Source: Escherichia coli (lineage in GTDB: Bacteria > Pseudomonadota > Gammaproteobacteria > Enterobacterales > Enterobacteriaceae). Taken from it: a stretch of DNA of 64,000 nt. This document shows, piece after piece, positions 2,808-63,239 of this stretch. The notes beneath the pieces are model-generated. The model was not told where the DNA came from, searched no databases, and worked only from the letters and a program-made list of their open reading frames with translations. Both the position numbers and the translations under genes were made by a program. The stretch is from the NCBI RefSeq assembly GCF_030013595.1, contig NZ_CP122768.1; one strand, 5' to 3'. Position 1 is the stretch's first letter; every line of letters starts with the position of its first letter.

Positions 2808-6209
<3,402 letters not shown>

Positions 6210-6227
6210 ATTTTATAATCCATAACG

Positions 6228-6251
6228 GGCGTCAGAAATGACGCCTTTTTT
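6228..6251 (+). terminator. Intrinsic terminator downstream of J (GGCGTCA-GAAA-TGACGCC + T6)
   Basis: Perfect 7-bp stem, 4-nt loop, followed by TTTTTT. Confidence 0.55.
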
Positions 6252-6275
6252 ATTGCAGAAAAGCGAGAGGTAATT

Positions 6276-6875
6276 ATGCGTAAACTTTATGCCGCCATTT
6301 TGTCCGCAGCCATTTGTCTGGCCGTATCCGGTGCGCCTGCATGGGCGTCTGAGCAGCAGGCCACGCTGAGCGTGGGGTATCTTCATGCCCGGACGAACGT
6401 TCCCGGCAGTGATGATCTGAACGGGATTAACGTGAAATACCGTTATGAGTTTACGGACACACTGGGGATGGTGACGTCATTCAGCTATGCAGGAGACAAG
6501 AATCGCCAGCTGACCCATTACAGCGATACCCGCTGGCATGAAGATTCCGTTCGTAACCGCTGGTTCAGCGTAATGGCGGGGCCGTCTGTGCGCGTGAATG
6601 AATGGTTCAGCGCGTATGCGATGGCGGGTGTGGCTTACAGCCGTGTGTCGACTTTCTCCGGGGATTATCTCCGCGTAACTGACAACAAGGGGAAAACGCA
6701 CGACGTGCTGACCGGAAGTGATGACGGTCGCCACAGCAACACGTCTCTGGCGTGGGGAGCTGGCGTGCAGTTTAACCCGACCGAATCCGTGGCCATTGAT
6801 ATTGCTTATGAAGGCTCCGGCAGTGGCGACTGGCGCACTGACGGTTTCATCGTGGGTGTCGGTTATAAGTTCTGA
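6276..6875 (+). CDS. lom: Outer membrane protein Lom (Ail/Lom/PagC family beta-barrel), prophage moron
   Basis: 199 aa with signal peptide (MRKLYAAILSAAICLAVSGAPAWA) and C-terminal ...GFIVGVGYKF; matches lambda Lom as recalled; flanked by terminators. Confidence 0.85.
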   Translation: MRKLYAAILSAAICLAVSGAPAWASEQQATLSVGYLHARTNVPGSDDLNGINVKYRYEFTDTLGMVTSFSYAGDKNRQLTHYSDTRWHEDSVRNRWFSVMAGPSVRVNEWFSAYAMAGVAYSRVSTFSGDYLRVTDNKGKTHDVLTGSDDGRHSNTSLAWGAGVQFNPTESVAIDIAYEGSGSGDWRTDGFIVGVGYKF

Positions 6876-6901
6876 TTAGCCAGGTAACACAGTGTTATGA
6901 C

Positions 6902-6929
6902 AGCCCGCCGGTTCAGGCGGGCTTTTTTG
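6902..6929 (+). terminator. Intrinsic terminator downstream of lom (AGCCCGCC-GGTTCA-GGCGGGCT + T6)
   Basis: 8-bp perfect stem followed by TTTTTTGT. Confidence 0.55.
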
Positions 6930-6939
6930 TGGGGTGAAT

Positions 6940-9900
6940 ATGGCAGTAAAGATTTCAGGTGTACTGAAAGACGGCACAGGAAAACCGGTACAGAACTGCA
7001 CAATCCAGCTGAAAGCAAAACGTAACAGCACCACGGTGGTGGTGAACACGCTGGCCTCAGAAAATCCGGATGAAGCCGGGCGTTACAGCATGGACGTTGA
7101 GTACGGTCAGTACAGCGTTATTCTGTTGGTGGAAGGATTCCCGCCGTCACATGCCGGGACCATCACCGTGTATGAAGATTCCCGACCCGGTACGCTGAAT
7201 GATTTTCTCGGTGCCATGACGGAGGATGATGCCCGTCCGGAGGCACTGCGCCGTTTTGAACTGATGGTGGAAGAGGTGGCGCGTAACGCGTCCGCGGTGG
7301 CACAGAACACGGCAGCCGCGAAGAAGTCAGCCAGCGATGCCGGCACATCAGCCCGTGAGGCGGCAACCCATGCGACTGATGCTGCAGGCTCAGCACGCGC
7401 AGCCAGCACGTCAGCCGGACAGGCCGCGTCGTCGGCTCAGTCAGCGTCTTCCAGCGCAGGAACGGCATCAACAAAGGCCACTGAAGCGGAAAAAAGTGCT
7501 GCCGCTGCAGAGTCCTCAAAAAGCGCGGCGGCCACCAGTGCCGGTGCGGCGAAAACGTCAGAAACGAATGCCGCAGCGTCACAACAATCAGCAGCCACTT
7601 CTGCATCCACCGCGACTACGAAAGCGTCAGAAGCTGCCACCTCAGCCCGGGATGCGGCGGCCTCAAAAGAGGCAGCGAAATCATCAGAAACGAACGCATC
7701 CTCGAGCGCCAGTAGCGCAGCTTCCTCGGCAACGGCGGCAGGAAATTCCGCGAAGGCGGCAAAAACGTCAGAGACGAACGCCAGGTCTTCTGAAACGGCA
7801 GCGGGACAGAGCGCCTCGGCTGCGGCAGGCTCAAAAACAGCGGCTGCATCATCTGCCAGTGCAGCGTCAACAAGTGCCGGGCAGGCCTCAGCCAGTGCCA
7901 CCGCCGCCGGAAAATCGGCAGAAAGCGCCGCATCGTCTGCTTCAACAGCCACAACGAAGGCTGGCGAAGCCACTGAACAGGCCAGCGCAGCAGCGAGGTC
8001 TGCTTCCGCAGCGAAGACATCCGAAACGAACGCGAAAGCGTCGGAAACCAGCGCAGAATCCTCAAAAACGGCAGCCGCATCGTCCGCCAGTTCGGCAGTG
8101 TCATCGGCATCATCTGCGTCTGCTTCAAAAGATGAGGCGACCAGACAGGCGTCAGCAGCGAAGGGCAGCGCCACGACGGCATCCACGAAGGCGACAGAGG
8201 CAGCTGGCAGTGCGAGGGCAGCAGCTCAGAGCAAAAGTACGGCGGAATCTGCAGCAACGCGCGCTGAGACAGCGGCAAAACGGGCAGAGGATATTGCATC
8301 CGCCGTGGCGCTTGAGGATGCGAGCACGACGAAAAAGGGGATAGTACAGCTCAGCAGTGCGACCAACAGTACGTCTGAAACGCTGGCGGCAACGCCAAAG
8401 GCAGTAAAATCAGCCTATGACAATGCAGAGAAACGTCTGCAGAAAGACCAGAACGGCGCTGATATACCCGATAAGGGACGCTTCCTGAACAACATTAACG
8501 CGGTCAGTAAAACAGACTTTGCTGATAAGCGTGGTATGCGTTATGTGCGGGTTAACGCTCCTGCAGGTGCAACATCTGGAAAATATTACCCTGTTGTTGT
8601 TATGCGTTCTGCTGGCTCAGTAAGCGAACTGGCATCAAGGGTCATTATCACCACGGCAACGCGAACCGCAGGCGATCCGATGAATAACTGCGAGTTTAAC
8701 GGGTTTGTTATGCCTGGTGGCTGGACTGACAGGGGGCGTTATGCTTATGGAATGTTCTGGCAATATCAAAACAATGAACGAGCCATCCACTCAATAATGA
8801 TGAGTAATAAGGGCGATGATTTGCGCTCTGTGTTCTATGTTGATGGTGCTGCTTTCCCTGTTTTTGCGTTTATTGAAGATGGCCTGTCAATATCCGCACC
8901 TGGTGCTGATCTCGTTGTTAATGATACGACCTATAAGTTTGGGGCAACAAATCCAGCGACGGAATGTATCGCGGCGGACGTTATCCTTGATTTTAAGAGT
9001 GGCCGTGGTTTTTATGAGTCCCATTCGTTAATCGTTAACGATAACTTGTCGTGCAAAAAACTTTTTGCCACAGACGAAATTGTAGCGCGTGGTGGTAATC
9101 AGATTCGAATGATAGGTGGGGAGTATGGTGCATTATGGCGTAATGATGGCGCTAAAACTTACCTGCTGCTTACCAATCAAGGTGATGTTTATGGTGGCTG
9201 GAATACATTAAGACCGTTTGCTATTGATAACGCAACCGGCGAACTGGTTATTGGAACCAAACTGTCCGCAAGTCTGAACGGTAATGCATTAACAGCAACA
9301 AAGCTGCAAACGCCAAGACTGGTTTCTGGGGTTGAGTTTGATGGTTCCAGAGATATTACTTTAACCGCTGCGCATGTTGCTGCTTTTGCCAGAAGAGCAA
9401 CGGATACGTATGCCGATGCGGATGGGGGCGTTCCCTGGAATGCCGAATCAGGCGCTTACAATGTCACCCGCTCTGGCAACAGCTATATTCTGGTTAACTT
9501 CTATACCGGAGTCGGAAGTTGCCGGACATTGCAGATGAAGGCGCATTACAGAAATGGAGGTCTGTTCTACCGTTCCTCAAGAGATGGCTATGGTTTTGAG
9601 GAAGACTGGGCAGAAGTTTATACCTCGAAAAATCTTCCACCAGAAAGCTACCCAGTCGGCGCACCAATCCCGTGGCCATCAGATACCGTTCCGTCTGGTT
9701 ATGCCCTGATGCAGGGGCAGACTTTTGACAAATCTGCTTACCCGAAACTTGCAGCCGCTTATCCGTCAGGCGTGATCCCTGATATGCGTGGCTGGACGAT
9801 TAAGGGCAAACCTGCCAGTGGTCGGGCCGTATTGTCTCAGGAACAGGACGGCATTAAATCGCACACCCACAGCGCCAGCGTATCCAGTACGGATTTGGGG

Positions 9901-10293
9901 ACGAAAACCACATCGTCGTTTGATTACGGCACTAAATCCACGAATAACACCGGGGCGCATACGCACAGTGTGAGCGGTACAGCCGCAAGTGCCGGAAACC
10001 ATACTCATAGTGTCACAGGCGCATCAGCAGTCAGCCAGTGGTCACAAAATGGGTCAGTACATAAGGTAGTGTCTGCGGCCAGTGTGAATACAAGTGCTGC
10101 AGGAGCACACACTCATAGTGTCAGCGGCACAGCTGCATCTGCAGGTGCTCACGCACATACTGTCGGTATTGGTGCTCATACGCACTCTGTTGCGATTGGC
10201 TCACATGGACACACTATCACCGTTAACGCTGCTGGTAACGCGGAAAACACCGTCAAAAACATCGCATTTAACTACATTGTGAGGCTTGCATAA
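6940..10293 (+). CDS. stf: Side tail fibre protein (Stf family), ~1117 aa
   Basis: N-terminus [24 protein letters not shown] and C-terminus ...[31 protein letters not shown] match lambda Stf as recalled; ATG at 6940 rather than ORF-track GTG at 6934; contains A/S/T-rich repeat block and HxH repeats. Confidence 0.85.
7261..8341 (+). repeat. Degenerate tandem coding repeat (Ala/Ser/Thr-rich, recurring AAKTSETNA / SAAxSASxATTKAxEA units) inside stf
   Basis: Motif KTSETNA or KSSETNA recurs at least four times in the translated ORF; low-complexity A/S/T composition over ~360 aa. Confidence 0.6.
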
Positions 10294-10877
10294 TGGCATT
10301 CAGAATGAGTGAACAACCACGGACCATAAAAATTTATAATCTGCTGGCCGGAACTAATGAATTTATTGGTGAAGGTGATGCATATATTCCGCCTCATACA
10401 GGTCTGCCAGCAAACAGTACCGATATTGCACCGCCAGATATTCCGGCTGACTTTGTGGCTGTTTTCAACAGTGATGAGGCATCGTGGCATCTCGTTGAAG
10501 ACCATCGGGGTAAAACAGTTTATGACGTGGCATCAGGGGACGCGTTATTTATTTCTGAACTCGGTCCGTTACCGGAAAATGTTACCTGGTTATCGCCGGA
10601 AGGGGAATATCAGAAGTGGAACGGCACAGCCTGGGTGAAAGATGCAGAAGCAGAAAAACTATTCCGGATCCGGGAAGCGGAAGAAACAAAAAACAGCTTG
10701 ATGCAGGTAGCCAGTGAGCATATAGCGCCGCTTCAGGATGCTGTAGATCTGGAGATCGCAACGGAGGAAGAAAACTCGTTGCTGGAAGCCTGGAAGAAGT
10801 ATCGGGTGTTGCTGAACCGTGTTGATACATCAACTGCACCTGATATTGAGTGGCCGGAAGAACCAGACACAATGTAA
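10293..10877 (+). CDS. tfa: Tail fibre assembly protein Tfa
   Basis: 194 aa; [44 protein letters not shown]... matches lambda Tfa as recalled; start overlaps stf stop. Confidence 0.9.
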
Positions 10878-11034
10878 GCGAAAAAGAAAAACCGCAGACA
10901 CGACGTATGCAGGACGTGCTGCGGTTGGCTGGTGAACTTTCGATAGTGCGAGTATTGAATGATTTCCAGCCGTTATTGATTTTATATAACTGTAGTGGAG
11001 TTATTCAACACACAGGCAAAACGGAATAATCTGA

Positions 11035-11395: not shown

Positions 11396-11758
11396 TGGTG
11401 GAGCTGGCGGGAGTTGAACCCGCGTCCGAAATTCCTACGTCCTCGGTACTACATGCTTAGTCAGTCTTTACATTCGCTTGCCAGCTGCGGACGGACACGC
11501 CACTAACAAACTAGCCTGATTAAGTTTTAACGCTTCAACCCCAGGCAGGGCTTCCACGCGATCTCTTTTGGGTTTGACCTCTCTTGATCCCCGTCCTAAG
11601 AGCGGAGGCTAGGGAGAGAGGGCTCTAAGCAGGTTATTAAGCTGCTAAAGCGTAGTTTTCGTCGTTTGCGACTATTTTTTGCGGCTTTTTACGAGGCCAA
11701 CCGCCCCTCGGCATGCACCTTGGGTTTCGCAAATCCCGTCGAATCCAGAATCAGCCCC
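11396..11758 (-). ncRNA. ssrA: tmRNA (SsrA, transfer-messenger RNA), 363 nt
   Basis: Reverse complement reads GGGGCTGATTCTGGATTCGACGGGATTTGCGAAACCCAAGGTGCATGCC...GGTTCAACTCCCGCCAGCTCCACCA, i.e. full-length E. coli tmRNA including encoded CCA. Confidence 0.95.
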
Positions 11759-18597: not shown

Positions 18598-19389
18598 TTA
18601 GCTGATTAACTGCTGGACAATTCGGCTGCCGAAGTAGGCCAGTGTCAGAATGACTGCACCCGCAACGTTAAACCAGACGACGCGGCGTCCACGCCATCCT
18701 TCATGATAATGTCCCCACAGCAGCACAATATAGACAAACCACGCCACGATAGAGAGCACGGCCTTGTCGATATTTTCCATGCTAAATAAGTTGTGCATGT
18801 AGAACAGGCCAGTGCAAAGCGTGAGCGTTAGCAGCACCACGCCAATCTGCGTGATGTGGAACATTTTACGCTCGATACTCATTAATGGCGGCATTTCCTG
18901 GTTAAACGCCAGCTTCTTGTTCTTCAGTTGGTAATCAATCCACGCCAGTTGCAGCGCGTACAGGGCGGCGATAATCAGCGTGGCATAGGAAAAGAGCGAT
19001 AAGCCAATGTGCACCAGCATCCCAGGCGTTGCTTCCAGATGAGTGATGTATTCATTGGGCATGAAGGTCGCCAGCGCCAGGTTGATAAGCGCAAAGGCAT
19101 AGACAATGGGTAGCAGCAACCAGCCACGATTGCGAGAAGCCACAATGGTCATTACCGTACAGATCATCAAACTGACCAATGAACCAACGTTCAGCAGGCT
19201 GAGGTTTTGTCCGCTATCACCGTCGGGCAGGATGCGGGCTTCCAGAGCGATTGCGTGGCAGACCAGCGCAATGACCGCAGAAATAATAGCCATGCGCCGC
19301 CAGCCGCCGTTTTTTTGCAGCAGACCGGGAACAATCAGCGCAAGACTGACGGAGTAGGCGACAAGCGCGAGCAGAGCAAAAACGGGCAT
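18598..19389 (-). CDS. ypjD: Inner membrane protein YpjD (CcmC/cytochrome c assembly-like family)
   Basis: Polytopic membrane protein divergent from ffh as in K-12; start placed at internal ATG (MPVFALLALVAY...), ORF-track start 19464 is probably an extension. Confidence 0.8.
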   Translation of the reverse strand: MPVFALLALVAYSVSLALIVPGLLQKNGGWRRMAIISAVIALVCHAIALEARILPDGDSGQNLSLLNVGSLVSLMICTVMTIVASRNRGWLLLPIVYAFALINLALATFMPNEYITHLEATPGMLVHIGLSLFSYATLIIAALYALQLAWIDYQLKNKKLAFNQEMPPLMSIERKMFHITQIGVVLLTLTLCTGLFYMHNLFSMENIDKAVLSIVAWFVYIVLLWGHYHEGWRGRRVVWFNVAGAVILTLAYFGSRIVQQLIS

Positions 19390-19555: not shown

Positions 19556-20917
19556 ATGTTTGATAATTTAACCGATCGTTTGTCGCGCACGCTGCGCAAT
19601 ATCAGTGGCCGTGGACGCCTCACTGAAGACAACGTAAAAGATACGCTGCGCGAAGTGCGCATGGCGCTGCTGGAGGCGGACGTCGCTCTGCCGGTAGTGC
19701 GTGAGTTTATCAATCGCGTAAAAGAGAAAGCGGTTGGTCATGAAGTTAATAAGAGCCTGACGCCGGGGCAGGAGTTCGTCAAAATCGTCCGTAACGAACT
19801 GGTTGCGGCGATGGGCGAACAGAACCAGACCCTGAACCTGGCTGCGCAACCGCCAGCGGTCGTGCTGATGGCGGGCCTGCAAGGTGCCGGTAAAACAACC
19901 AGCGTTGGTAAACTCGGTAAGTTCCTGCGCGAGAAGCACAAGAAGAAAGTGCTGGTGGTTTCCGCCGACGTTTATCGCCCGGCGGCAATCAAACAGCTTG
20001 AGACGCTGGCAGAGCAGGTGGGCGTTGATTTCTTCCCTTCTGATGTTGGTCAGAAGCCGGTAGATATCGTTAACGCGGCGCTGAAAGAAGCCAAACTGAA
20101 ATTCTACGACGTGCTGCTGGTGGATACCGCTGGTCGTCTGCACGTTGACGAAGCGATGATGGATGAGATCAAACAAGTCCATGCGTCGATTAATCCGGTT
20201 GAAACCCTGTTTGTGGTTGACGCCATGACCGGTCAGGATGCGGCCAATACGGCAAAAGCATTTAATGAAGCGTTACCGCTTACCGGCGTAGTGTTGACCA
20301 AAGTGGACGGCGATGCCCGCGGCGGTGCGGCACTCTCTATTCGTCACATCACTGGCAAACCGATCAAGTTCCTCGGTGTTGGCGAGAAAACTGAGGCGCT
20401 GGAGCCGTTCCATCCGGACCGCATCGCGTCGCGTATTCTCGGCATGGGCGACGTACTGTCACTGATCGAAGATATCGAAAGCAAAGTTGACCGCGCGCAG
20501 GCAGAGAAATTAGCCAGCAAGCTGAAAAAAGGCGACGGCTTCGATCTCAACGACTTTCTTGAGCAGCTGCGCCAGATGAAAAATATGGGCGGCATGGCTA
20601 GCCTGATGGGCAAGCTGCCGGGCATGGGGCAGATCCCGGATAACGTCAAGTCGCAGATGGACGATAAAGTGCTGGTGCGTATGGAAGCCATCATCAACTC
20701 GATGACGATGAAAGAGCGCGCTAAGCCAGAAATCATCAAAGGTTCGCGTAAGCGTCGTATCGCCGCCGGTTGCGGGATGCAGGTACAGGACGTTAACCGC
20801 CTTCTGAAGCAGTTCGACGACATGCAGCGCATGATGAAGAAAATGAAGAAGGGCGGAATGGCGAAGATGATGAGAAGCATGAAGGGTATGATGCCGCCGG
20901 GATTTCCTGGTCGCTAA
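19556..20917 (+). CDS. ffh: Signal recognition particle protein Ffh
   Basis: 453 aa, SRP54-type GTPase (GLQGAGKTT, DTAGR, TKVDGDARGG) and Met-rich M domain. Confidence 0.95.
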   Translation: MFDNLTDRLSRTLRNISGRGRLTEDNVKDTLREVRMALLEADVALPVVREFINRVKEKAVGHEVNKSLTPGQEFVKIVRNELVAAMGEQNQTLNLAAQPPAVVLMAGLQGAGKTTSVGKLGKFLREKHKKKVLVVSADVYRPAAIKQLETLAEQVGVDFFPSDVGQKPVDIVNAALKEAKLKFYDVLLVDTAGRLHVDEAMMDEIKQVHASINPVETLFVVDAMTGQDAANTAKAFNEALPLTGVVLTKVDGDARGGAALSIRHITGKPIKFLGVGEKTEALEPFHPDRIASRILGMGDVLSLIEDIESKVDRAQAEKLASKLKKGDGFDLNDFLEQLRQMKNMGGMASLMGKLPGMGQIPDNVKSQMDDKVLVRMEAIINSMTMKERAKPEIIKGSRKRRIAAGCGMQVQDVNRLLKQFDDMQRMMKKMKKGGMAKMMRSMKGMMPPGFPGR

Positions 20918-29607: not shown

Positions 29608-29630
29608 AGTGTTGCCTTTTTGTTATCAAT

Positions 29631-29660
29631 AAAAAAGGCCCCCCGATTTGGGAGGCCTTA
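29631..29660 (-). terminator. pheA attenuator terminator (minus strand GGCCTCCC-AAATC-GGGGGGCC + T6)
   Basis: GC-rich hairpin followed by T-run on the minus strand between pheL and pheA. Confidence 0.7.
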
Positions 29661-29705
29661 TTGTTCGTCTTCGCATTCTGTTTCACACGACGAAACGCCT
29701 CCCAT

Positions 29706-29753
29706 TCAGGGGAAGGTAAAAAAGAATGCGAAGAAAAACGGTGTGTGTTTCAT
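29706..29753 (-). CDS. pheL: pheA leader peptide PheL (15 aa: [15 protein letters not shown], seven Phe codons)
   Basis: Minus-strand ATG AAA CAC ACA CCG TTT TTC TTC GCA TTC TTT TTT ACC TTC CCC TGA read directly. Confidence 0.85.
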   Translation of the reverse strand: [15 protein letters not shown]

Positions 29754-29809
29754 GTTTGTTTCCTTAAGTGACTTCAGTACAGTACCCGTACTGTTTTCAC
29801 GCTGTCAAC

Positions 29810-34489: not shown

Positions 34490-34551
34490 CCTAAAGAATC
34501 AAGACGATCCGGTACGCGTGATTTTCTTTTCACATTAATCTGGTCAATAAC

Positions 34552-34579
34552 CTTGAATAATTGAGGGATGACCTCATTT
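34552..34579 (+). promoter_or_regulatory. Sigma32 heat-shock promoter of clpB (-35 CTTGAAT, 14-bp spacer, -10 CCTCATTT)
   Basis: Match to sigma32 consensus upstream of clpB. Confidence 0.5.
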
Positions 34580-34618
34580 AATCTCCAGTAGCAACTTTGA
34601 TCCGTTATGGGAGGAGTT

Positions 34619-37192
34619 ATGCGTCTGGATCGTCTTACTAATAAATTCCAGCTTGCTCTTGCCGATGCCCAATCACTTGCACTCGGGCACGACAACCAAT
34701 TTATCGAACCACTTCATTTAATGAGCGCCCTGCTGAATCAGGAAGGGGGGTCGGTTAGTCCTTTATTAACATCCGCTGGCATAAATGCTGGCCAGTTGCG
34801 CACAGATATCAATCAGGCATTAAATCGTTTACCGCAGGTTGAAGGTACTGGTGGTGATGTCCAGCCATCACAGGATCTGGTGCGCGTTCTTAATCTTTGC
34901 GACAAGCTGGCGCAAAAACGTGGTGATAACTTTATCTCGTCAGAACTGTTCGTTCTGGCGGCACTTGAGTCTCGCGGCACGCTGGCCGACATCCTGAAAG
35001 CAGCAGGGGCGACCACCGCCAACATTACTCAAGCGATTGAACAAATGCGTGGAGGTGAAAGCGTGAACGATCAAGGTGCTGAAGACCAACGTCAGGCTTT
35101 GAAAAAATATACCATCGACCTTACCGAACGAGCCGAACAGGGCAAACTCGATCCGGTGATTGGTCGTGATGAAGAAATTCGCCGTACCATTCAGGTGCTG
35201 CAACGTCGTACTAAAAATAACCCAGTACTGATTGGTGAACCCGGCGTCGGTAAAACTGCCATCGTTGAAGGTCTGGCGCAGCGTATTATCAACGGCGAAG
35301 TGCCGGAAGGGTTGAAAGGCCGCCGCGTACTGGCGCTGGATATGGGCGCGCTGGTGGCTGGGGCGAAATATCGCGGTGAGTTTGAAGAACGTTTAAAAGG
35401 CGTGCTTAACGATCTTGCCAAACAGGAAGGCAACGTCATCCTGTTTATCGACGAATTACATACCATGGTCGGCGCGGGTAAAGCCGATGGCGCAATGGAC
35501 GCCGGAAACATGCTGAAACCGGCGCTGGCGCGTGGTGAATTGCACTGCGTAGGTGCCACGACGCTTGACGAATATCGCCAGTACATCGAAAAAGATGCTG
35601 CGCTGGAACGTCGTTTCCAGAAAGTGTTTGTTGCCGAGCCTTCTGTTGAAGACACCATTGCTATTCTGCGTGGCTTAAAAGAACGTTACGAACTGCACCA
35701 CCATGTGCAAATTACTGACCCGGCAATTGTTGCAGCGGCGACGTTGTCTCATCGCTACATTGCTGACCGTCAGCTGCCGGATAAAGCCATCGACCTGATC
35801 GATGAAGCAGCATCCAGCATTCGTATGCAGATTGACTCAAAACCAGAAGAACTCGACCGACTCGATCGTCGTATCATCCAGCTCAAACTGGAACAACAGG
35901 CGTTAATGAAAGAGTCTGATGAAGCCAGTAAAAAACGCCTGGATATGCTCAACGAAGAACTGAGCGACAAAGAACGTCAGTACTCCGAGTTAGAAGAAGA
36001 GTGGAAAGCAGAGAAAGCATCGCTTTCTGGTACACAGACCATTAAAGCGGAACTGGAACAGGCGAAAATCGCTATTGAACAGGCTCGCCGTGTGGGTGAC
36101 CTGGCGCGGATGTCTGAACTGCAATACGGCAAAATCCCGGAACTGGAAAAGCAACTGGAAGCCGCAACGCAGCTCGAAGGCAAAACTATGCGTCTGTTGC
36201 GTAATAAAGTGACCGACGCCGAAATTGCTGAAGTGCTGGCGCGTTGGACGGGGATTCCGGTTTCTCGCATGATGGAAAGCGAGCGCGAAAAACTGCTGCG
36301 TATGGAGCAAGAGCTGCACCATCGCGTTATTGGTCAGAACGAAGCGGTTGATGCGGTATCTAACGCTATTCGTCGTAGCCGCGCAGGGCTTGCTGACCCG
36401 AATCGCCCGATTGGTTCATTCCTGTTCCTCGGCCCAACCGGTGTGGGGAAAACTGAGCTTTGTAAGGCGCTGGCGAACTTTATGTTTGATAGCGACGAGG
36501 CGATGATCCGTATCGATATGTCCGAGTTTATGGAGAAACACTCGGTGTCTCGTCTGGTTGGTGCGCCTCCGGGATATGTCGGTTATGAAGAAGGTGGCTA
36601 CCTGACCGAAGCGGTGCGTCGTCGTCCGTATTCCGTCATCCTGCTGGATGAAGTGGAAAAAGCGCATCCGGATGTCTTCAACATTCTGTTGCAGGTACTG
36701 GATGATGGGCGTCTGACTGACGGGCAGGGGAGAACGGTCGACTTCCGTAATACGGTTGTCATTATGACCTCTAACCTCGGTTCCGATTTGATTCAGGAAC
36801 GCTTCGGTGAACTGGATTATGCGCACATGAAAGAGCTGGTGCTCGGTGTGGTAAGCCATAACTTCCGTCCGGAATTCATTAACCGTATCGATGAAGTGGT
36901 GGTCTTCCATCCGCTGGGTGAACAGCACATTGCGTCGATTGCGCAGATTCAGTTGAAACGTCTGTACAAACGTCTGGAAGAACGTGGTTATGAAATCCAC
37001 ATTTCTGACGAGGCGCTGAAACTGCTGAGCGAGAACGGTTACGATCCGGTCTATGGTGCACGTCCTCTGAAACGTGCAATTCAGCAGCAGATTGAAAACC
37101 CGCTGGCACAGCAAATACTGTCTGGTGAATTGGTTCCGGGTAAAGTGATTCGCCTGGAAGTTAATGAAGACCGGATTGTCGCCGTCCAGTAA
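34619..37192 (+). CDS. clpB: Chaperone ClpB (Hsp100 disaggregase)
   Basis: 857 aa from [18 protein letters not shown]; two AAA+ modules ([16 protein letters not shown]); ATG at 34619 preceded by GGGAGGAG. Confidence 0.95.
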
Positions 37193-37636: not shown

Positions 37637-39178
<1,542 letters not shown>

Positions 39179-39263
39179 CCTTAAAGAAGCGTACTTTGCA
39201 GTGCTCACACAGATTGTCTGATAGAAAGTGAAAAGCAAGGCGTCTTGCGAAGCAGACTGATAC

Positions 39264-39339
39264 GTCCCCTTCGTCTAGAGGCCCAGGACACCGCCCTTTC
39301 ACGGCGGTAACAGGGGTTCGAATCCCCTAGGGGACGCCA
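39264..39339 (+). tRNA. gltW: tRNA-Glu (anticodon UUC) in the 16S-23S spacer
   Basis: GTCCCCTTCGTCTAGAGGCCCAGGACACCGCCCTTTCACGGCGGTAACAGGGGTTCGAATCCCCTAGGGGACGCCA. Confidence 0.95.
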
Positions 39340-39532
39340 CTTGCTGGTTTGTGAGTGAAAGTCACCTGCCTTAATATCTCAAAACTCATCTTCGGGTGAT
39401 GTTTGAGATATTTGCTCTTTAAAAATCTGGATCAAGCTGAAAATTGAAACACTGAACAACGAAAGTTGTTCGTGAGTCTCTCAAATTTTCGCAACACGAT
39501 GATGAATCGAAAGAAACATCTTCGGGTTGTGA

Positions 39533-42437
<2,905 letters not shown>

Positions 42438-42529
42438 ACAACGCCGAAGATGTTTTGGCGGATGAGAGAAGATTTTCAGCCTGATACAGATTAACTCAGA
42501 ACGCAGAAGCGGTCTGATGAAACAGAATT

Positions 42530-42649
42530 TGCCTGGCGGCCTTAGCGCGGTGGTCCCACCTGACCCCATGCCGAACTCAGAAGTGAAACGCCGTAGCGCC
42601 GATGGTAGTGTGGGGTCTCCCCATGCGAGAGTAGGGAACTGCCAGGCAT
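42530..42649 (+). rRNA. rrfG: 5S ribosomal RNA (120 nt)
   Basis: TGCCTGGCGGCCTTAGCGCGGTGGTCCCACCTGACCCCATGCCGAACTCAG...GGAACTGCCAGGCAT. Confidence 0.95.
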
Positions 42650-59810: not shown

Positions 59811-60766
59811 TGAAGCAACTTTGGTTTGCCATGTCATTAGTGACAGGTAGCCTGTTATTCTCTGCTAACGCCTCGGCCACTCCCGCGTCCGGGGCGTTAT
59901 TACAGCAGATGAACCTGGCCAGTCAGTCACTGAATTACGAGCTGTCATTCATCAGCATCAATAAACAGGGTGTTGAGTCTCTGCGTTATCGACATGCACG
60001 CCTCGATAACCGTCCTCTTGCACAATTGTTGCAAATGGATGGCCCGCGCCGGGAAGTGGTACAGCGCGGCAATGAAATCAGCTATTTTGAACCGGGACTT
60101 GAACCGTTCACGCTTAATGGCGATTACATTGTTGATTCTCTGCCATCGCTCATCTATACCGATTTCAAACGCCTTTCTCCTTACTACGACTTTATCTCCG
60201 TCGGGCGGACGCGTATTGCTGATCGTCTTTGCGAAGTTATTCGCGTGGTTGCCCGAGATGGTACACGCTACAGCTACATCGTGTGGATGGACACCGAATC
60301 GAAATTACCGATGAGGGTTGATCTCCTTGATCGCGATGGTGAAACGCTGGAACAATTTCGCGTGATTGCTTTTAATGTCAATCAGGAAATCAGCAGCAGT
60401 ATGCAGACGCTGGCGAAGGCAAATTTGCCGCCGTTGCTTTCTGTTCCTGTAGGTGAAAAAGCTAAATTCAGCTGGACGCCAACCTGGTTGCCACAGGGTT
60501 TTAGCGAAGTTTCCAGTAGTCGACGTCCGCTACCGACGATGGACAACATGCCTATCGAATCACGTCTCTATTCCGACGGATTATTCAGCTTCTCGGTAAA
60601 CGTTAACCGCGCTACGCCATCGAGCACCGATCAGATGTTGCGCACCGGGCGCAGAACCGTCAGTACAAGCGTACGTGATAACGCCGAAATCACCATTGTC
60701 GGTGAACTGCCGCCGCAAACGGCGAAACGCATTGCCGAGAATATTAAGTTCGGGGCAGCGCAATGA
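59810..60766 (+). CDS. rseB: Sigma-E regulatory protein RseB
   Basis: 318 aa with signal peptide, start overlaps rseA stop. Confidence 0.95.
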   Translation: MKQLWFAMSLVTGSLLFSANASATPASGALLQQMNLASQSLNYELSFISINKQGVESLRYRHARLDNRPLAQLLQMDGPRREVVQRGNEISYFEPGLEPFTLNGDYIVDSLPSLIYTDFKRLSPYYDFISVGRTRIADRLCEVIRVVARDGTRYSYIVWMDTESKLPMRVDLLDRDGETLEQFRVIAFNVNQEISSSMQTLAKANLPPLLSVPVGEKAKFSWTPTWLPQGFSEVSSSRRPLPTMDNMPIESRLYSDGLFSFSVNVNRATPSSTDQMLRTGRRTVSTSVRDNAEITIVGELPPQTAKRIAENIKFGAAQ

Positions 60767-61242
60767 TCAAAGAGTGGGCTACCGTCGTCTCCTGGGAAAA
60801 CGGGCAGGCGCTGGTCAGTTGTGATGTTAAAGCCTCATGCAGCAGCTGCGCTTCACGTGCCGGTTGCGGTAGCCGCGTGTTGAATAAACTTGGCCCGCAA
60901 ACCACGCATACTATTGTCGTACCCTGTGATGAGCCGTTAGTGCCGGGGCAAAAAGTAGAATTAGGAATCGCCGAAGGCAGCCTGCTTAGCTCCGCATTAC
61001 TGGTTTATATGTCGCCGTTGATGGGACTATTCCTCATCGCTTCACTATTTCAGCTACTCTTTGCTTCAGATATTGCAGCATTATGCGGTGCGATTCTCGG
61101 TGGCGTTGGTGGATTCCTGATTGCACGTGGCTGCTCTCGAAAGTTTGCTGCCCGGTCTGAATGGCAACCGATCATCTTAAGCGTGGCATTGCCGCCTGGC
61201 CTTGTGCGATTTGAAACATCTTCGGAAGACGCGAGCCAGTGA
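60763..61242 (+). CDS. rseC: Sigma-E regulatory protein RseC
   Basis: 159 aa, Cys-rich N-terminus and two TM segments; overlaps rseB stop. Confidence 0.95.
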   Translation: MIKEWATVVSWENGQALVSCDVKASCSSCASRAGCGSRVLNKLGPQTTHTIVVPCDEPLVPGQKVELGIAEGSLLSSALLVYMSPLMGLFLIASLFQLLFASDIAALCGAILGGVGGFLIARGCSRKFAARSEWQPIILSVALPPGLVRFETSSEDASQ

Positions 61243-61439
61243 TTTCACTGGCTTTGTTGCATTTTGCATAACAAATGCGAGGACGTTTCCAGATACCACA
61301 ATCCATACGGTATGAACATTTCCTCGCCTCAATGTTGTAGTGTAGAATGCGGCGTTTCTATTAATACAGACGTTAAGCTCAGAACAGCGACTTCTAAAAG
61401 CCTGGTTAACCGGGCATTAAGGCACAATAATCATACTTT

Positions 61440-63239
<1,800 letters not shown>

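What the first reader, a model, noticed from the sequence alone, without database searches (positions are those of the whole stretch)
6210..6935. lom is an insulated moron flanked by intrinsic terminators inside the tail operon
Strong hairpin-plus-T-tract terminators lie immediately upstream (6228-6251) and downstream (6902-6929) of lom, an Ail/PagC-family outer membrane protein gene. This is the classic moron architecture, implying lom is expressed independently in the lysogen and could affect host adhesion or serum resistance.
Basis: partly seen in the sequence, partly recalled or inferred. Interest (0 to 1): 0.3.

Follow-up and report, generated by a model that had tools for sequence, protein, structure and literature searches.

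The report
Terminator-bracketed lom gene in lambdoid prophage
The two terminator hairpins around the prophage outer-membrane gene lom are real and conserved, but phage lambda has the same layout, so this is a textbook feature; the one thing missing is a recognisable lom promoter.

Summary
Hairpin-plus-T-tract elements lie at 6227-6251 and 6902-6928, on the sense strand, on either side of lom (6276-6875). Under strict criteria the whole 64-kb window holds 9 such sites against 0.02 expected by chance, and two of them bracket lom.

Both are under selection. The upstream stem shows two compensatory pair changes and no one-sided change. Downstream, substitutions fall in the loop, or whole different terminators occupy the same position.

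Phage lambda has the same J-hairpin-lom-hairpin-stf layout. Hundreds of annotated lambdoid and Stx phages carry this same DNA segment at 95-99% identity. The feature is therefore already known in kind.

- A downstream terminator follows lom in every context examined.
- The upstream hairpin is seen only at the J-lom junction.
- No significant or conserved sigma-70 promoter was found. The 24 nt proposed for one (6252-6275) hold only the ribosome-binding site.
- GC content is not distinctive, and mosaic boundaries do not coincide with the terminators.

Independent expression in the lysogen is inferred from published work on lambda and phi24B, not from this sequence. Interest is low.

The parts
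2811..6209 (+). J, the tail tip / host specificity protein (1132 aa). Its receptor-binding C-terminus (from about 5720) is the variable part.
   Evidence: Pfam hits to Phage-tail_3, Ig_J, FNIII-A_GpJ, Ig_GpJ_C and others. Identity to lambda drops from 90-100% to 30-65% at about 5720.
6227..6251 (+). Upstream intrinsic-terminator-like element: 8-bp stem, GAAA loop, then a T run (TTTTTTATT). It starts 17 nt after the J stop codon and ends 24 nt before the lom ATG.
   Evidence: Compensatory changes in 2 of 8 pairs, no one-sided change, 98.4% of cells paired against 31-61% in slid controls. Lambda has a different hairpin plus T-tract at the same place.
6265..6270 (+). Shine-Dalgarno sequence GAGAGG of lom, 5 nt before the ATG.
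   Evidence: Read from the sequence. Invariant in all relatives and also present in lambda.
6276..6875 (+). lom, a 199-aa Ail/Lom-family outer-membrane beta-barrel protein precursor. It has the signal peptide MRKLYAAILSAAICLAVSGAPAWA and ends in ...GVGYKF.
   Evidence: PF06316 E = 6e-119 over the full length. 47% aa identity to lambda Lom. 94-98% identity to 80 IMG/VR loci and 95-99% to more than 100 annotated phages.
6876..6901 (+). Short lom 3'UTR. It is identical to lambda's, although most of the lom coding region is highly diverged from lambda's.
6902..6928 (+). Downstream intrinsic-terminator-like element: 8-bp GC-rich stem, 6-nt loop, T6. It ends 11 nt before the stf ATG.
   Evidence: Among relatives there are five loop variants, and the only stem substitution is C>T, which gives a G.U pair. 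Unrelated terminators hold the same position in L070 and after lom in short-tailed Stx phages.
6940..10293 (+). stf, the side tail fibre gene, intact. By homology with lambda orf-401 the real start is the ATG at 6940; the ORF list gives an upstream GTG at 6934.
   Evidence: Pfam phage_tail_N, Gp34_trimer and Collar. Alignment with the lambda stf start.
10293..10877 (+). tfa, the tail fibre assembly protein and last gene of the late cluster. It must be transcribed through both terminators.
   Evidence: PF02413 E = 4e-45.

Best explanation
Both hairpins are Rho-independent terminators that act on rightward, sense-strand RNA, and together they make lom a separate transcription compartment inside the tail gene cluster.

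Proposed mechanism:
- In the repressed prophage, ordinary RNA polymerase arriving from within the tail genes is stopped just after J (6227-6251).
- Any transcript that covers lom is stopped at 6902-6928, before it reaches stf and tfa.
- After induction, Q-modified polymerase from the late promoter, which lies outside this window, ignores both terminators. J, lom, stf and tfa are then all expressed late.
- lom is therefore expressed in two modes: low-level in the lysogen, from a promoter that has not been located, and strongly late. This is what has been reported for lambda.

Shown here: the structures, their selection, their strand, and their presence in lambda.
Inferred: termination activity, read-through by Q-modified polymerase, and expression in the lysogen.
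For: - Canonical anatomy and rarity: 9 strict sites in 64 kb against 0.02 expected, two of them flanking lom.
- Upstream stem: two pairs changed on both sides (G-C>A-U, C-G>U-A), none on one side only, 98.4% of cells paired against 31-61% when slid. Loop changes, including a flipped loop, are tolerated.
- Downstream stem: variation is confined to the loop, plus one G.U-compatible change.
- The G.U wobbles are allowed only in + strand RNA. They occur at the base pair 6227/6246, in the lambda and L016 GGTGGGCT variant, and in lambda's upstream CGTCCG/CGGGCG stem.
- Neither hairpin is followed by a T-tract on the - strand.
- Lambda has a different upstream hairpin followed by TTTTATTAT at the same position, and a near-identical downstream one. 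The same scanner calls both.
- Three unrelated terminator sequences follow lom in other contexts: VT2-Sakai and Stx2_112991 and L070.
- stf and tfa downstream are intact, so late transcription must pass both sites.
- HK97 and N15 records already annotate putative terminators inside their tail operons.
- Literature: lambda Lom is constitutive in the prophage and rises sharply late (PMC12366544). The phi24B lom is expressed independently of induction (PMC3342100).
Against: - No sigma-70 promoter is detectable between J and lom or in the conserved block 6156-6275.
- With an efficient terminator 24 nt before the ATG, it is unclear where a lysogenic lom transcript would start.
- One microarray study did not detect lom in a lambda lysogen (PMC2147009).
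- Termination and antitermination were not measured, and Q and pR' are outside the window.
- The covariation rests on only 8 distinct, closely related sequences.
Confidence: 0.75

Rival explanations
1. This lom lineage has no promoter of its own. lom is expressed essentially only as part of the Q-antiterminated late transcript, and the upstream terminator keeps it silent or very low in the lysogen. Lom would then act late, for example by reducing adsorption of progeny or superinfecting phage, rather than as a lysogenic-conversion factor.
For: - No significant or conserved promoter was found.
- A strong terminator lies 24 nt before the ATG.
- Lom overexpression blocks lambda-vir, Lom rises strongly late in infection, and prophage-level Lom does not protect a lysogen (PMC12366544).
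- lom was not detected in one lambda lysogen array study (PMC2147009).
Against: - Several papers report lambda lom as expressed from the repressed prophage. Lambda has the same terminator-RBS-ATG arrangement.
- The phi24B lom is expressed equally in lysogens and in induced cells.
- Consensus scans miss weak or activator-dependent promoters.
- The same Lom type occurs with at least 6 different J receptor-binding types, so there is no sign of receptor-matched exclusion.
Confidence: 0.2
2. The hairpins are mainly RNA-stability or processing elements. They would act as 3' stem-loops that protect the J and lom segments of the long late mRNA from 3' exonucleases, or as a 5' protective hairpin for lom mRNA, with termination incidental.
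For: The stems are selected at the RNA level on the + strand. Both sit exactly at gene ends. During lytic growth they are presumably not used as terminators.
Against: - Every version has an uninterrupted T-tract directly after the stem, including lambda's unrelated upstream hairpin and the unrelated terminators in L070 and the Stx phages. Termination needs that tract; exonuclease protection does not.
- HK97, HK022 and N15 have no hairpin directly after J, so J mRNA does not generally need one.
Confidence: 0.1
3. The hairpins are DNA-level features: recombination 'boundary sequences' or palindromes that mark module junctions in mosaic lambdoid genomes.
For: - The upstream hairpin lies in a junction zone. 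Hairpin variants track J-end variants, while the T-tract-to-ATG segment tracks lom.
- One variant has its loop flipped (GAAA to TTTC), which looks like a DNA-level event.
- An IS66-family element inserted exactly at the T-tract in L030.
- A T6-ATTGC tail recurs after several unrelated terminators.
Against: - Mosaic boundaries do not coincide with the hairpins. They fall at about 5720 and about 6800 relative to lambda, and at about 6156 among close relatives.
- The G.U wobble pairs would be A.C mismatches in the complementary strand.
- The strictly one-sided T-tracts fit an RNA signal.
Confidence: 0.05

Closest known systems
Phage lambda J-lom-stf region (NC_001416, 18903-19650)
   Same: Same gene order. 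A hairpin plus T-tract lies between J and lom (record 18920-18935) and another between lom and stf (19612-19633). The downstream terminator, the lom 3' end, the 3'UTR and the stf start are 87-100% identical at the DNA level. The RBS and start context are also shared.
   Different: Lom is only 47% identical (199 aa here, 206 aa in lambda). The upstream hairpin has an unrelated stem sequence (6 bp, GGAA loop). The J receptor-binding end is about 43% identical. Lambda's T-tract extension reads TATTAT/TATAAA, which is -10-like; here it reads TATTGC.
Morons of lambdoid phages (HK97 gp15, gp22 and gp23; cor of HK022 and N15), as defined by Juhala/Hendrix and reviewed in PMC3594210
   Same: An accessory gene sits between tail genes and is followed by its own intrinsic terminator immediately before the next gene's RBS. 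The site downstream of J holds different cargo in different phages: lom, cor plus other genes, or none. Lom is listed among moron products.
   Different: No recognisable promoter and no distinct GC content here. There is an additional terminator upstream of the gene, which the cor morons lack directly after J.
lom of short-tailed Stx phages (VT2-Sakai, 933W, phi24B)
   Same: An Ail/Lom-family gene followed by an intrinsic terminator. It is reported as expressed in the lysogen.
   Different: Only about 32% aa identity and a 244-aa product. It lies in a different genomic context with no J. It has no upstream hairpin but a roughly 90-nt AT-rich spacer with promoter-like matches. A small RNA (24B_1) is reported downstream of it.

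Membership tests
Ail/Lom outer membrane protein family (Pfam PF06316) | Full-length match to the family profile above the curated cut-off | tested here: met
   395 bits against a cut-off of 23, E = 6e-119, residues 1-199 on profile positions 1-199 of 199. Also matches OMP_b-brl, PF13505.
Ail/Lom outer membrane protein family (Pfam PF06316) | Sec signal peptide and a C-terminal aromatic beta-signal, as expected for an outer-membrane beta-barrel | tested here: met
   Read from the translation: MRKLYAAILSAAICLAVSGAPAWA/SEQ at the N-terminus and ...GVGYKF at the C-terminus. No dedicated predictor was run.
Ail/Lom outer membrane protein family (Pfam PF06316) | Eight-stranded beta-barrel fold; adhesion, serum-resistance or anti-phage activity | not tested
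   No structure prediction was run and function cannot be tested here. For lambda Lom, adhesion and lambda-vir blocking are literature claims.
Moron (independent accessory transcription unit in a phage operon) | Extra DNA between genes that are adjacent in related phages | tested here: inconclusive
   HK97 has J followed by stf with no lom, but its 207-nt gap holds an IS5-end-like palindrome and its stf start differs. N15 and HK022 carry cor and other genes at this site. No relative with identical flanks and a clean empty site was found.
Moron (independent accessory transcription unit in a phage operon) | Own transcription terminator downstream of the gene | tested here: met
   Element at 6902-6928. 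It is conserved, with variation confined to the loop. Unrelated terminators fill the same position in L070, VT2-Sakai and Stx2_112991.
Moron (independent accessory transcription unit in a phage operon) | Own promoter upstream of the gene | tested here: inconclusive
   The consensus scan gives no + strand hit near lom. The best PWM hit, 5994-6023, is at a level expected about 0.4 times by chance and lies in a non-conserved part of J. TATAAT at 6214-6219 is unique to this window; relatives have TATAAC. The interval 6252-6275 is too short to hold a promoter. Weak, activator-dependent or alternative-sigma promoters cannot be excluded.
Moron (independent accessory transcription unit in a phage operon) | GC content different from the surrounding genes | tested here: not met
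   lom is 0.50-0.58 GC, within the range of the J 3' end (0.46-0.53) and stf (0.51-0.64).
Moron (independent accessory transcription unit in a phage operon) | Expressed from the repressed prophage | not testable with these tools
   Reported for lambda lom and phi24B lom. Not detected in one lambda array study. No data exist for this prophage.
Rho-independent (intrinsic) terminator | Stable GC-rich stem-loop followed immediately by a U-tract on the transcribed strand | tested here: met
   Both sites: 8-bp stems, -13.6 and about -19 kcal/mol, each followed by T6; the - strand has no T-tract.
Rho-independent (intrinsic) terminator | Structure maintained by selection across relatives | tested here: met
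   Upstream: 2 compensatory pairs and 0 one-sided changes. Downstream: changes only in the loop or G.U-compatible. Structural analogues with unrelated sequence occur at the same positions.
Rho-independent (intrinsic) terminator | Measured termination, and read-through by Q-modified polymerase | not testable with these tools
   Needs Term-seq or in vitro transcription. Q and pR' lie outside the window.

The most novel reading that the evidence does not exclude
The upstream terminator may be more than passive insulation. It could be the control point for lom. With no promoter of its own in the 24-nt gap, lysogenic lom expression would depend on regulated read-through (attenuation) of transcripts that start in or before the J 3' end. 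Lom's main role would then be late in infection, as an anti-adsorption or superinfection-exclusion factor rather than a virulence moron. In this particular prophage, the unique C>T change that creates a perfect TATAAT at 6214-6219, just before the hairpin, could feed such read-through.
Probability: 0.12. Interest if true: 0.4.

Novelty: already known. Interest (0 to 1): 0.12.

Why it matters
It matters little as a discovery. lom is a long-known accessory gene of lambdoid prophages, and phage lambda itself has the same terminator-gene-terminator layout. What this analysis adds is modest:
- It gives comparative evidence, from compensatory changes and from replacement by unrelated terminators, that both hairpins are maintained by selection as sense-strand RNA signals.
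- It shows that only the downstream terminator accompanies lom in every context examined.
- It shows that the lom promoter, which the literature admits is uncharacterised, is not visible in the sequence.

That last gap, where lysogenic lom transcripts start and how they pass a terminator 24 nt before the ATG, is a small but real open question. It bears on the recent suggestion that Lom is an anti-phage factor.

Tried and rejected
1. Rejected: 24 nt filled by the SD and its spacer.
2. Promoter elsewhere. The simple scan and my own PWM scan gave nothing above chance. The best hit lies in non-conserved J sequence. TATAAT at 6214 is private to this window.
3. L030 as a natural module boundary just after the T-tract. 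Rejected: it is an IS66-family transposase insertion.
4. Co-evolution of Lom with the J receptor-binding domain, suggested by the single divergent block 5720-6800 relative to lambda. Rejected: the same Lom type (94% identity or more) occurs with at least 6 J C-terminal types of 35-75% identity.
5. HK97 as a clean empty site. Not clean: the gap holds an IS5-end-like palindrome.
6. The upstream hairpin as a general end-of-J terminator. Rejected: there is none directly after J in HK97, HK022 or N15.
7. Covariation in the lambda-type upstream hairpin. The 5 extra loci were identical, so there is no information.
8. A known RNA family in 6100-7000. Only sub-threshold chance hits, and none at gathering score.
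9. Compositional anomaly. None.
10. Primary transcript-mapping data. Liu et al. 2013 is not in the library, and nine literature searches found no mapped lom TSS or 3' end.

Full report
**What is in the window.** The first ~11.4 kb of the window is the right arm of a lambdoid prophage that ends next to ssrA (tmRNA at 11396-11758, minus strand). The genes run rightward:
- J, 2811-6209 (tail tip, several GpJ Pfam domains);
- lom, 6276-6875;
- stf, whose real start is the ATG at 6940, ending at 10293;
- tfa, 10293-10877.

The lom product is a full-length Ail/Lom protein (PF06316, 395 bits, E = 6e-119). It has a typical signal peptide and a C-terminal ...GYKF. The 901-nt segment 6100-7000, which spans lom and both hairpins, is 95-99% identical to 140 annotated phage records, mostly Escherichia and Stx-converting phages. 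The first 20 kb matches E. coli chromosomes at about 97%.

**Checking the observation.**
- Upstream: GGGCGTCA-GAAA-TGACGCCT at 6227-6246, followed by TTTTTATT. MFE is -13.6 kcal/mol and z = -3.5.
- Downstream: AGCCCGCC-GGTTCA-GGCGGGCT at 6902-6923, followed by a T run to 6928. MFE is about -19 kcal/mol.

They are the two top-ranked terminator-like sites in 12 kb. That generic scan is not enriched overall (16 sites against 11.3 expected), so I applied strict criteria: at least 7 perfect pairs, at least 5 GC, a loop of 3-8, and T6 immediately after. The whole 64-kb window then has 9 sites on both strands against 0.02 in 100 dinucleotide shuffles, and two of the nine flank lom. Neither hairpin has a T-tract on the minus strand, so both are unidirectional and oriented with the genes.

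**Evidence of selection.** I collected 80 related loci from IMG/VR and several annotated phages.

The upstream stem exists as GGCGTCA/TGACGCC, GGCGCCA/TGGCGCC and GGCACCA/TGGTGCC. There are also loop variants, including a flipped loop (GAAA to TTTC). On 8 distinct sequences:
- 2 of 8 pairs changed on both sides and none on one side only;
- 98.4% of cells are paired, against 31-61% when the 3' partners are slid;
- only 2 of 500 column shuffles reach the observed covariation score.

The sample is small and closely related, so this is supportive rather than overwhelming.

Downstream, five variants differ in the loop. The only stem substitution is C>T, which makes a G.U pair. Lambda carries that same wobble, and its own upstream hairpin also contains one. 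G.U pairs are tolerated only in + strand RNA. This argues for an RNA-level signal on the sense strand rather than a DNA palindrome.

**Comparison with lambda and other contexts.** Lambda (NC_001416) has the same layout. Between J and lom there is an unrelated 6-bp hairpin, CGTCCG-GGAA-CGGGCG, followed by TTTTATTAT. After lom there is a near-identical terminator. The same scanner calls both.

In L070 the 3' end of lom and its 3'UTR are different, and a third, unrelated terminator (AGCCCG...CGGGCT + T7) sits directly before the stf RBS. In the short-tailed Stx phages (VT2-Sakai, Stx2_112991), a distant lom (about 32-43% identity) lies in a different context with no J. It is again followed by a terminator of its own (ACCCGC-TGTGAT-GGCGGGT + T-tract). 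It has no upstream hairpin; instead there is a ~90-nt AT-rich spacer with promoter-like matches.

HK97, HK022 and N15 have no terminator directly after J. HK022 and N15 have one after the cor cargo, just before the next tail-fibre gene.

In summary, a downstream terminator follows lom in every context examined, and the same holds for other cargo at this site. The upstream terminator is specific to the J-lom junction of lambda-like siphoviruses.

**The missing promoter.** From the end of the T-tract (6251) to the ATG (6276) there are 24 nt. They contain the SD GAGAGG at 6265-6270, and this segment is invariant in relatives.

The consensus scan finds no + strand promoter near lom. My approximate sigma-70 PWM gave its best hit at 5994-6023, inside J (99.985th percentile). 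About 0.4 hits at that level are expected by chance in a region this size, and the hit lies where relatives are only about 60-68% identical. The perfect TATAAT at 6214-6219 is private to this window: all 79 other loci with the J-lom junction, plus PhiR46_1 and JLK-2012, read TATAAC. It also lacks a -35, and it would start transcripts directly at the hairpin. Lambda has -10-like TATTAT/TATAAA in its T-tract extension, but the window reads TATTGC there.

Osterhout et al. state that little is known about the lom promoter, and they did not detect lom in their lysogen (PMC2147009). I could not find any mapped lom TSS.

**Mosaic structure.** Relative to lambda, a single divergent block spans about 5720-6800. 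It comprises the J receptor-binding end, the upstream hairpin, and about 175 codons of lom. The flanks on both sides are mostly 87-100% identical per 30-nt bin. On the right side, that conserved flank includes the lom 3' end, the downstream terminator and the stf N-terminus.

Among close relatives, the conserved block begins at about 6156. Module boundaries therefore do not coincide with the terminators, and lom plus its terminators is not exchanged as one neat cassette.

The co-divergence of J and lom suggested receptor-matched function. That idea fails, because the same Lom type occurs with at least six J C-terminal types. GC content across lom is unremarkable.

**Most likely mechanism.** Both elements are intrinsic terminators for non-antiterminated polymerase. 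Together they isolate lom from stray transcription coming out of the tail genes, and they keep lom transcription out of stf and tfa in the lysogen. Q-modified polymerase reads through both during lytic growth; this is established lambda biology and was not tested here. stf and tfa are intact and lie downstream, so read-through is required.

This fits published reports. Lambda Lom is made constitutively from the prophage and rises sharply late in infection (PMC12366544, citing Liu et al. 2013). The phi24B lom is expressed whether or not the prophage is induced (PMC3342100).

The rivals are listed with their tests: a late-only lom with no promoter of its own, RNA-stability hairpins, and DNA boundary sequences. 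The first is the only one with appreciable probability, and it is not fully exclusive of the main model.

**Verdict.** The architecture is that of lambda itself and of hundreds of sequenced lambdoid prophages. lom is already cited as a moron product (PMC3594210). Tail-operon terminators are annotated in the HK97 and N15 records. The call of "classic moron" is only partly borne out:
- downstream terminator: met;
- promoter: not found;
- distinct composition: not met;
- clean empty site: inconclusive;
- expression in the lysogen: not testable here.

Novelty: already known. Interest: low.

Noticed in passing
window 6214-6219: A perfect -10 hexamer, TATAAT, lies 7 nt before the upstream hairpin. 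It is private to this window: all 79 other loci that retain the J-lom junction, plus PhiR46_1 and JLK-2012, read TATAAC. It has no good -35 (GTATCA at a 15-nt spacing; PWM 99.96th percentile). Any transcript from it would begin at the terminator hairpin.
   Followed up: partly
window 5720-6800, compared with L001 (lambda): One contiguous divergent block relative to lambda covers the J receptor-binding end, the upstream hairpin and the first ~175 codons of lom. The right-hand breakpoint is inside lom at about 6800, so the lom 3' end, 3'UTR and terminator are shared with lambda even though Lom is only 47% identical overall.
   Followed up: yes
L057 and L063, upstream hairpin: The stem is the same, but the loop is the reverse complement of the usual one (GAAA becomes TTTC). 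It looks as if the loop was inverted at the DNA level.
   Followed up: no
L030 907-2445 and the junction at about 2478: An IS66-family transposase (512-aa ORF) is inserted exactly at the T-tract upstream of lom. It replaces J and the hairpin but leaves the lom RBS and gene intact.
   Followed up: partly
L070, downstream of lom: A variant lom 3' end (...DAFIVGIGYRF) has a longer, unrelated 3'UTR of about 125 nt and a different terminator (AGCCCG...CGGGCT + T7) directly before a variant stf start.
   Followed up: partly
window 6246-6256; L082 (VT2-Sakai) after lom; L088 4990-5021; L089 6022-6053: The tail 'TTTTTTATTGC' recurs directly after otherwise unrelated terminator stems: the window's upstream terminator, the VT2-Sakai lom terminator, and the HK022 and N15 cor terminators. 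L070 has TTTTTTTATTGG. It may be chance or a shared junction sequence.
   Followed up: no
L087 (HK97) 5040-5170, the J-stf gap: The 207-nt gap between HK97 J and stf folds into a long perfect palindrome, GGGAAGGTGCGAATAAGT...ACTTATTCGCACCTTCC. From memory, the arms resemble IS5 terminal inverted repeats, so it may be a MITE-like remnant where lambda has lom. The IS5 resemblance was not tested.
   Followed up: no
window 10636-10834 (+): An Rfam hit to IS009 (RF02111, 214 bits, full length) lies inside the 3' part of the tfa coding region.
   Followed up: no
window 10885-10925: Just after the tfa stop there is a hairpin, CCGCAG...CTGCGG. Its T-tract is on the minus strand (AAAAAGAAAAA on the plus strand), so it is a leftward-facing terminator-like element between the prophage end and ssrA (sequence read only).
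   Followed up: no
IMG/VR loci L002-L081: The same Lom type (94-98% aa identity) is combined with at least six different J C-terminal (receptor-binding) types of 35-75% identity. J receptor domains are therefore swapped independently of lom, with a boundary near window 6156.
   Followed up: yes
window 37637-42647, 29629-29754, 34500-34638, 60727-61558: Ordinary chromosomal features lie outside the prophage: an rRNA operon (16S, tRNA, 23S, 5S), the Phe leader, RyfD, and an AsrC antisense RNA match.
   Followed up: no
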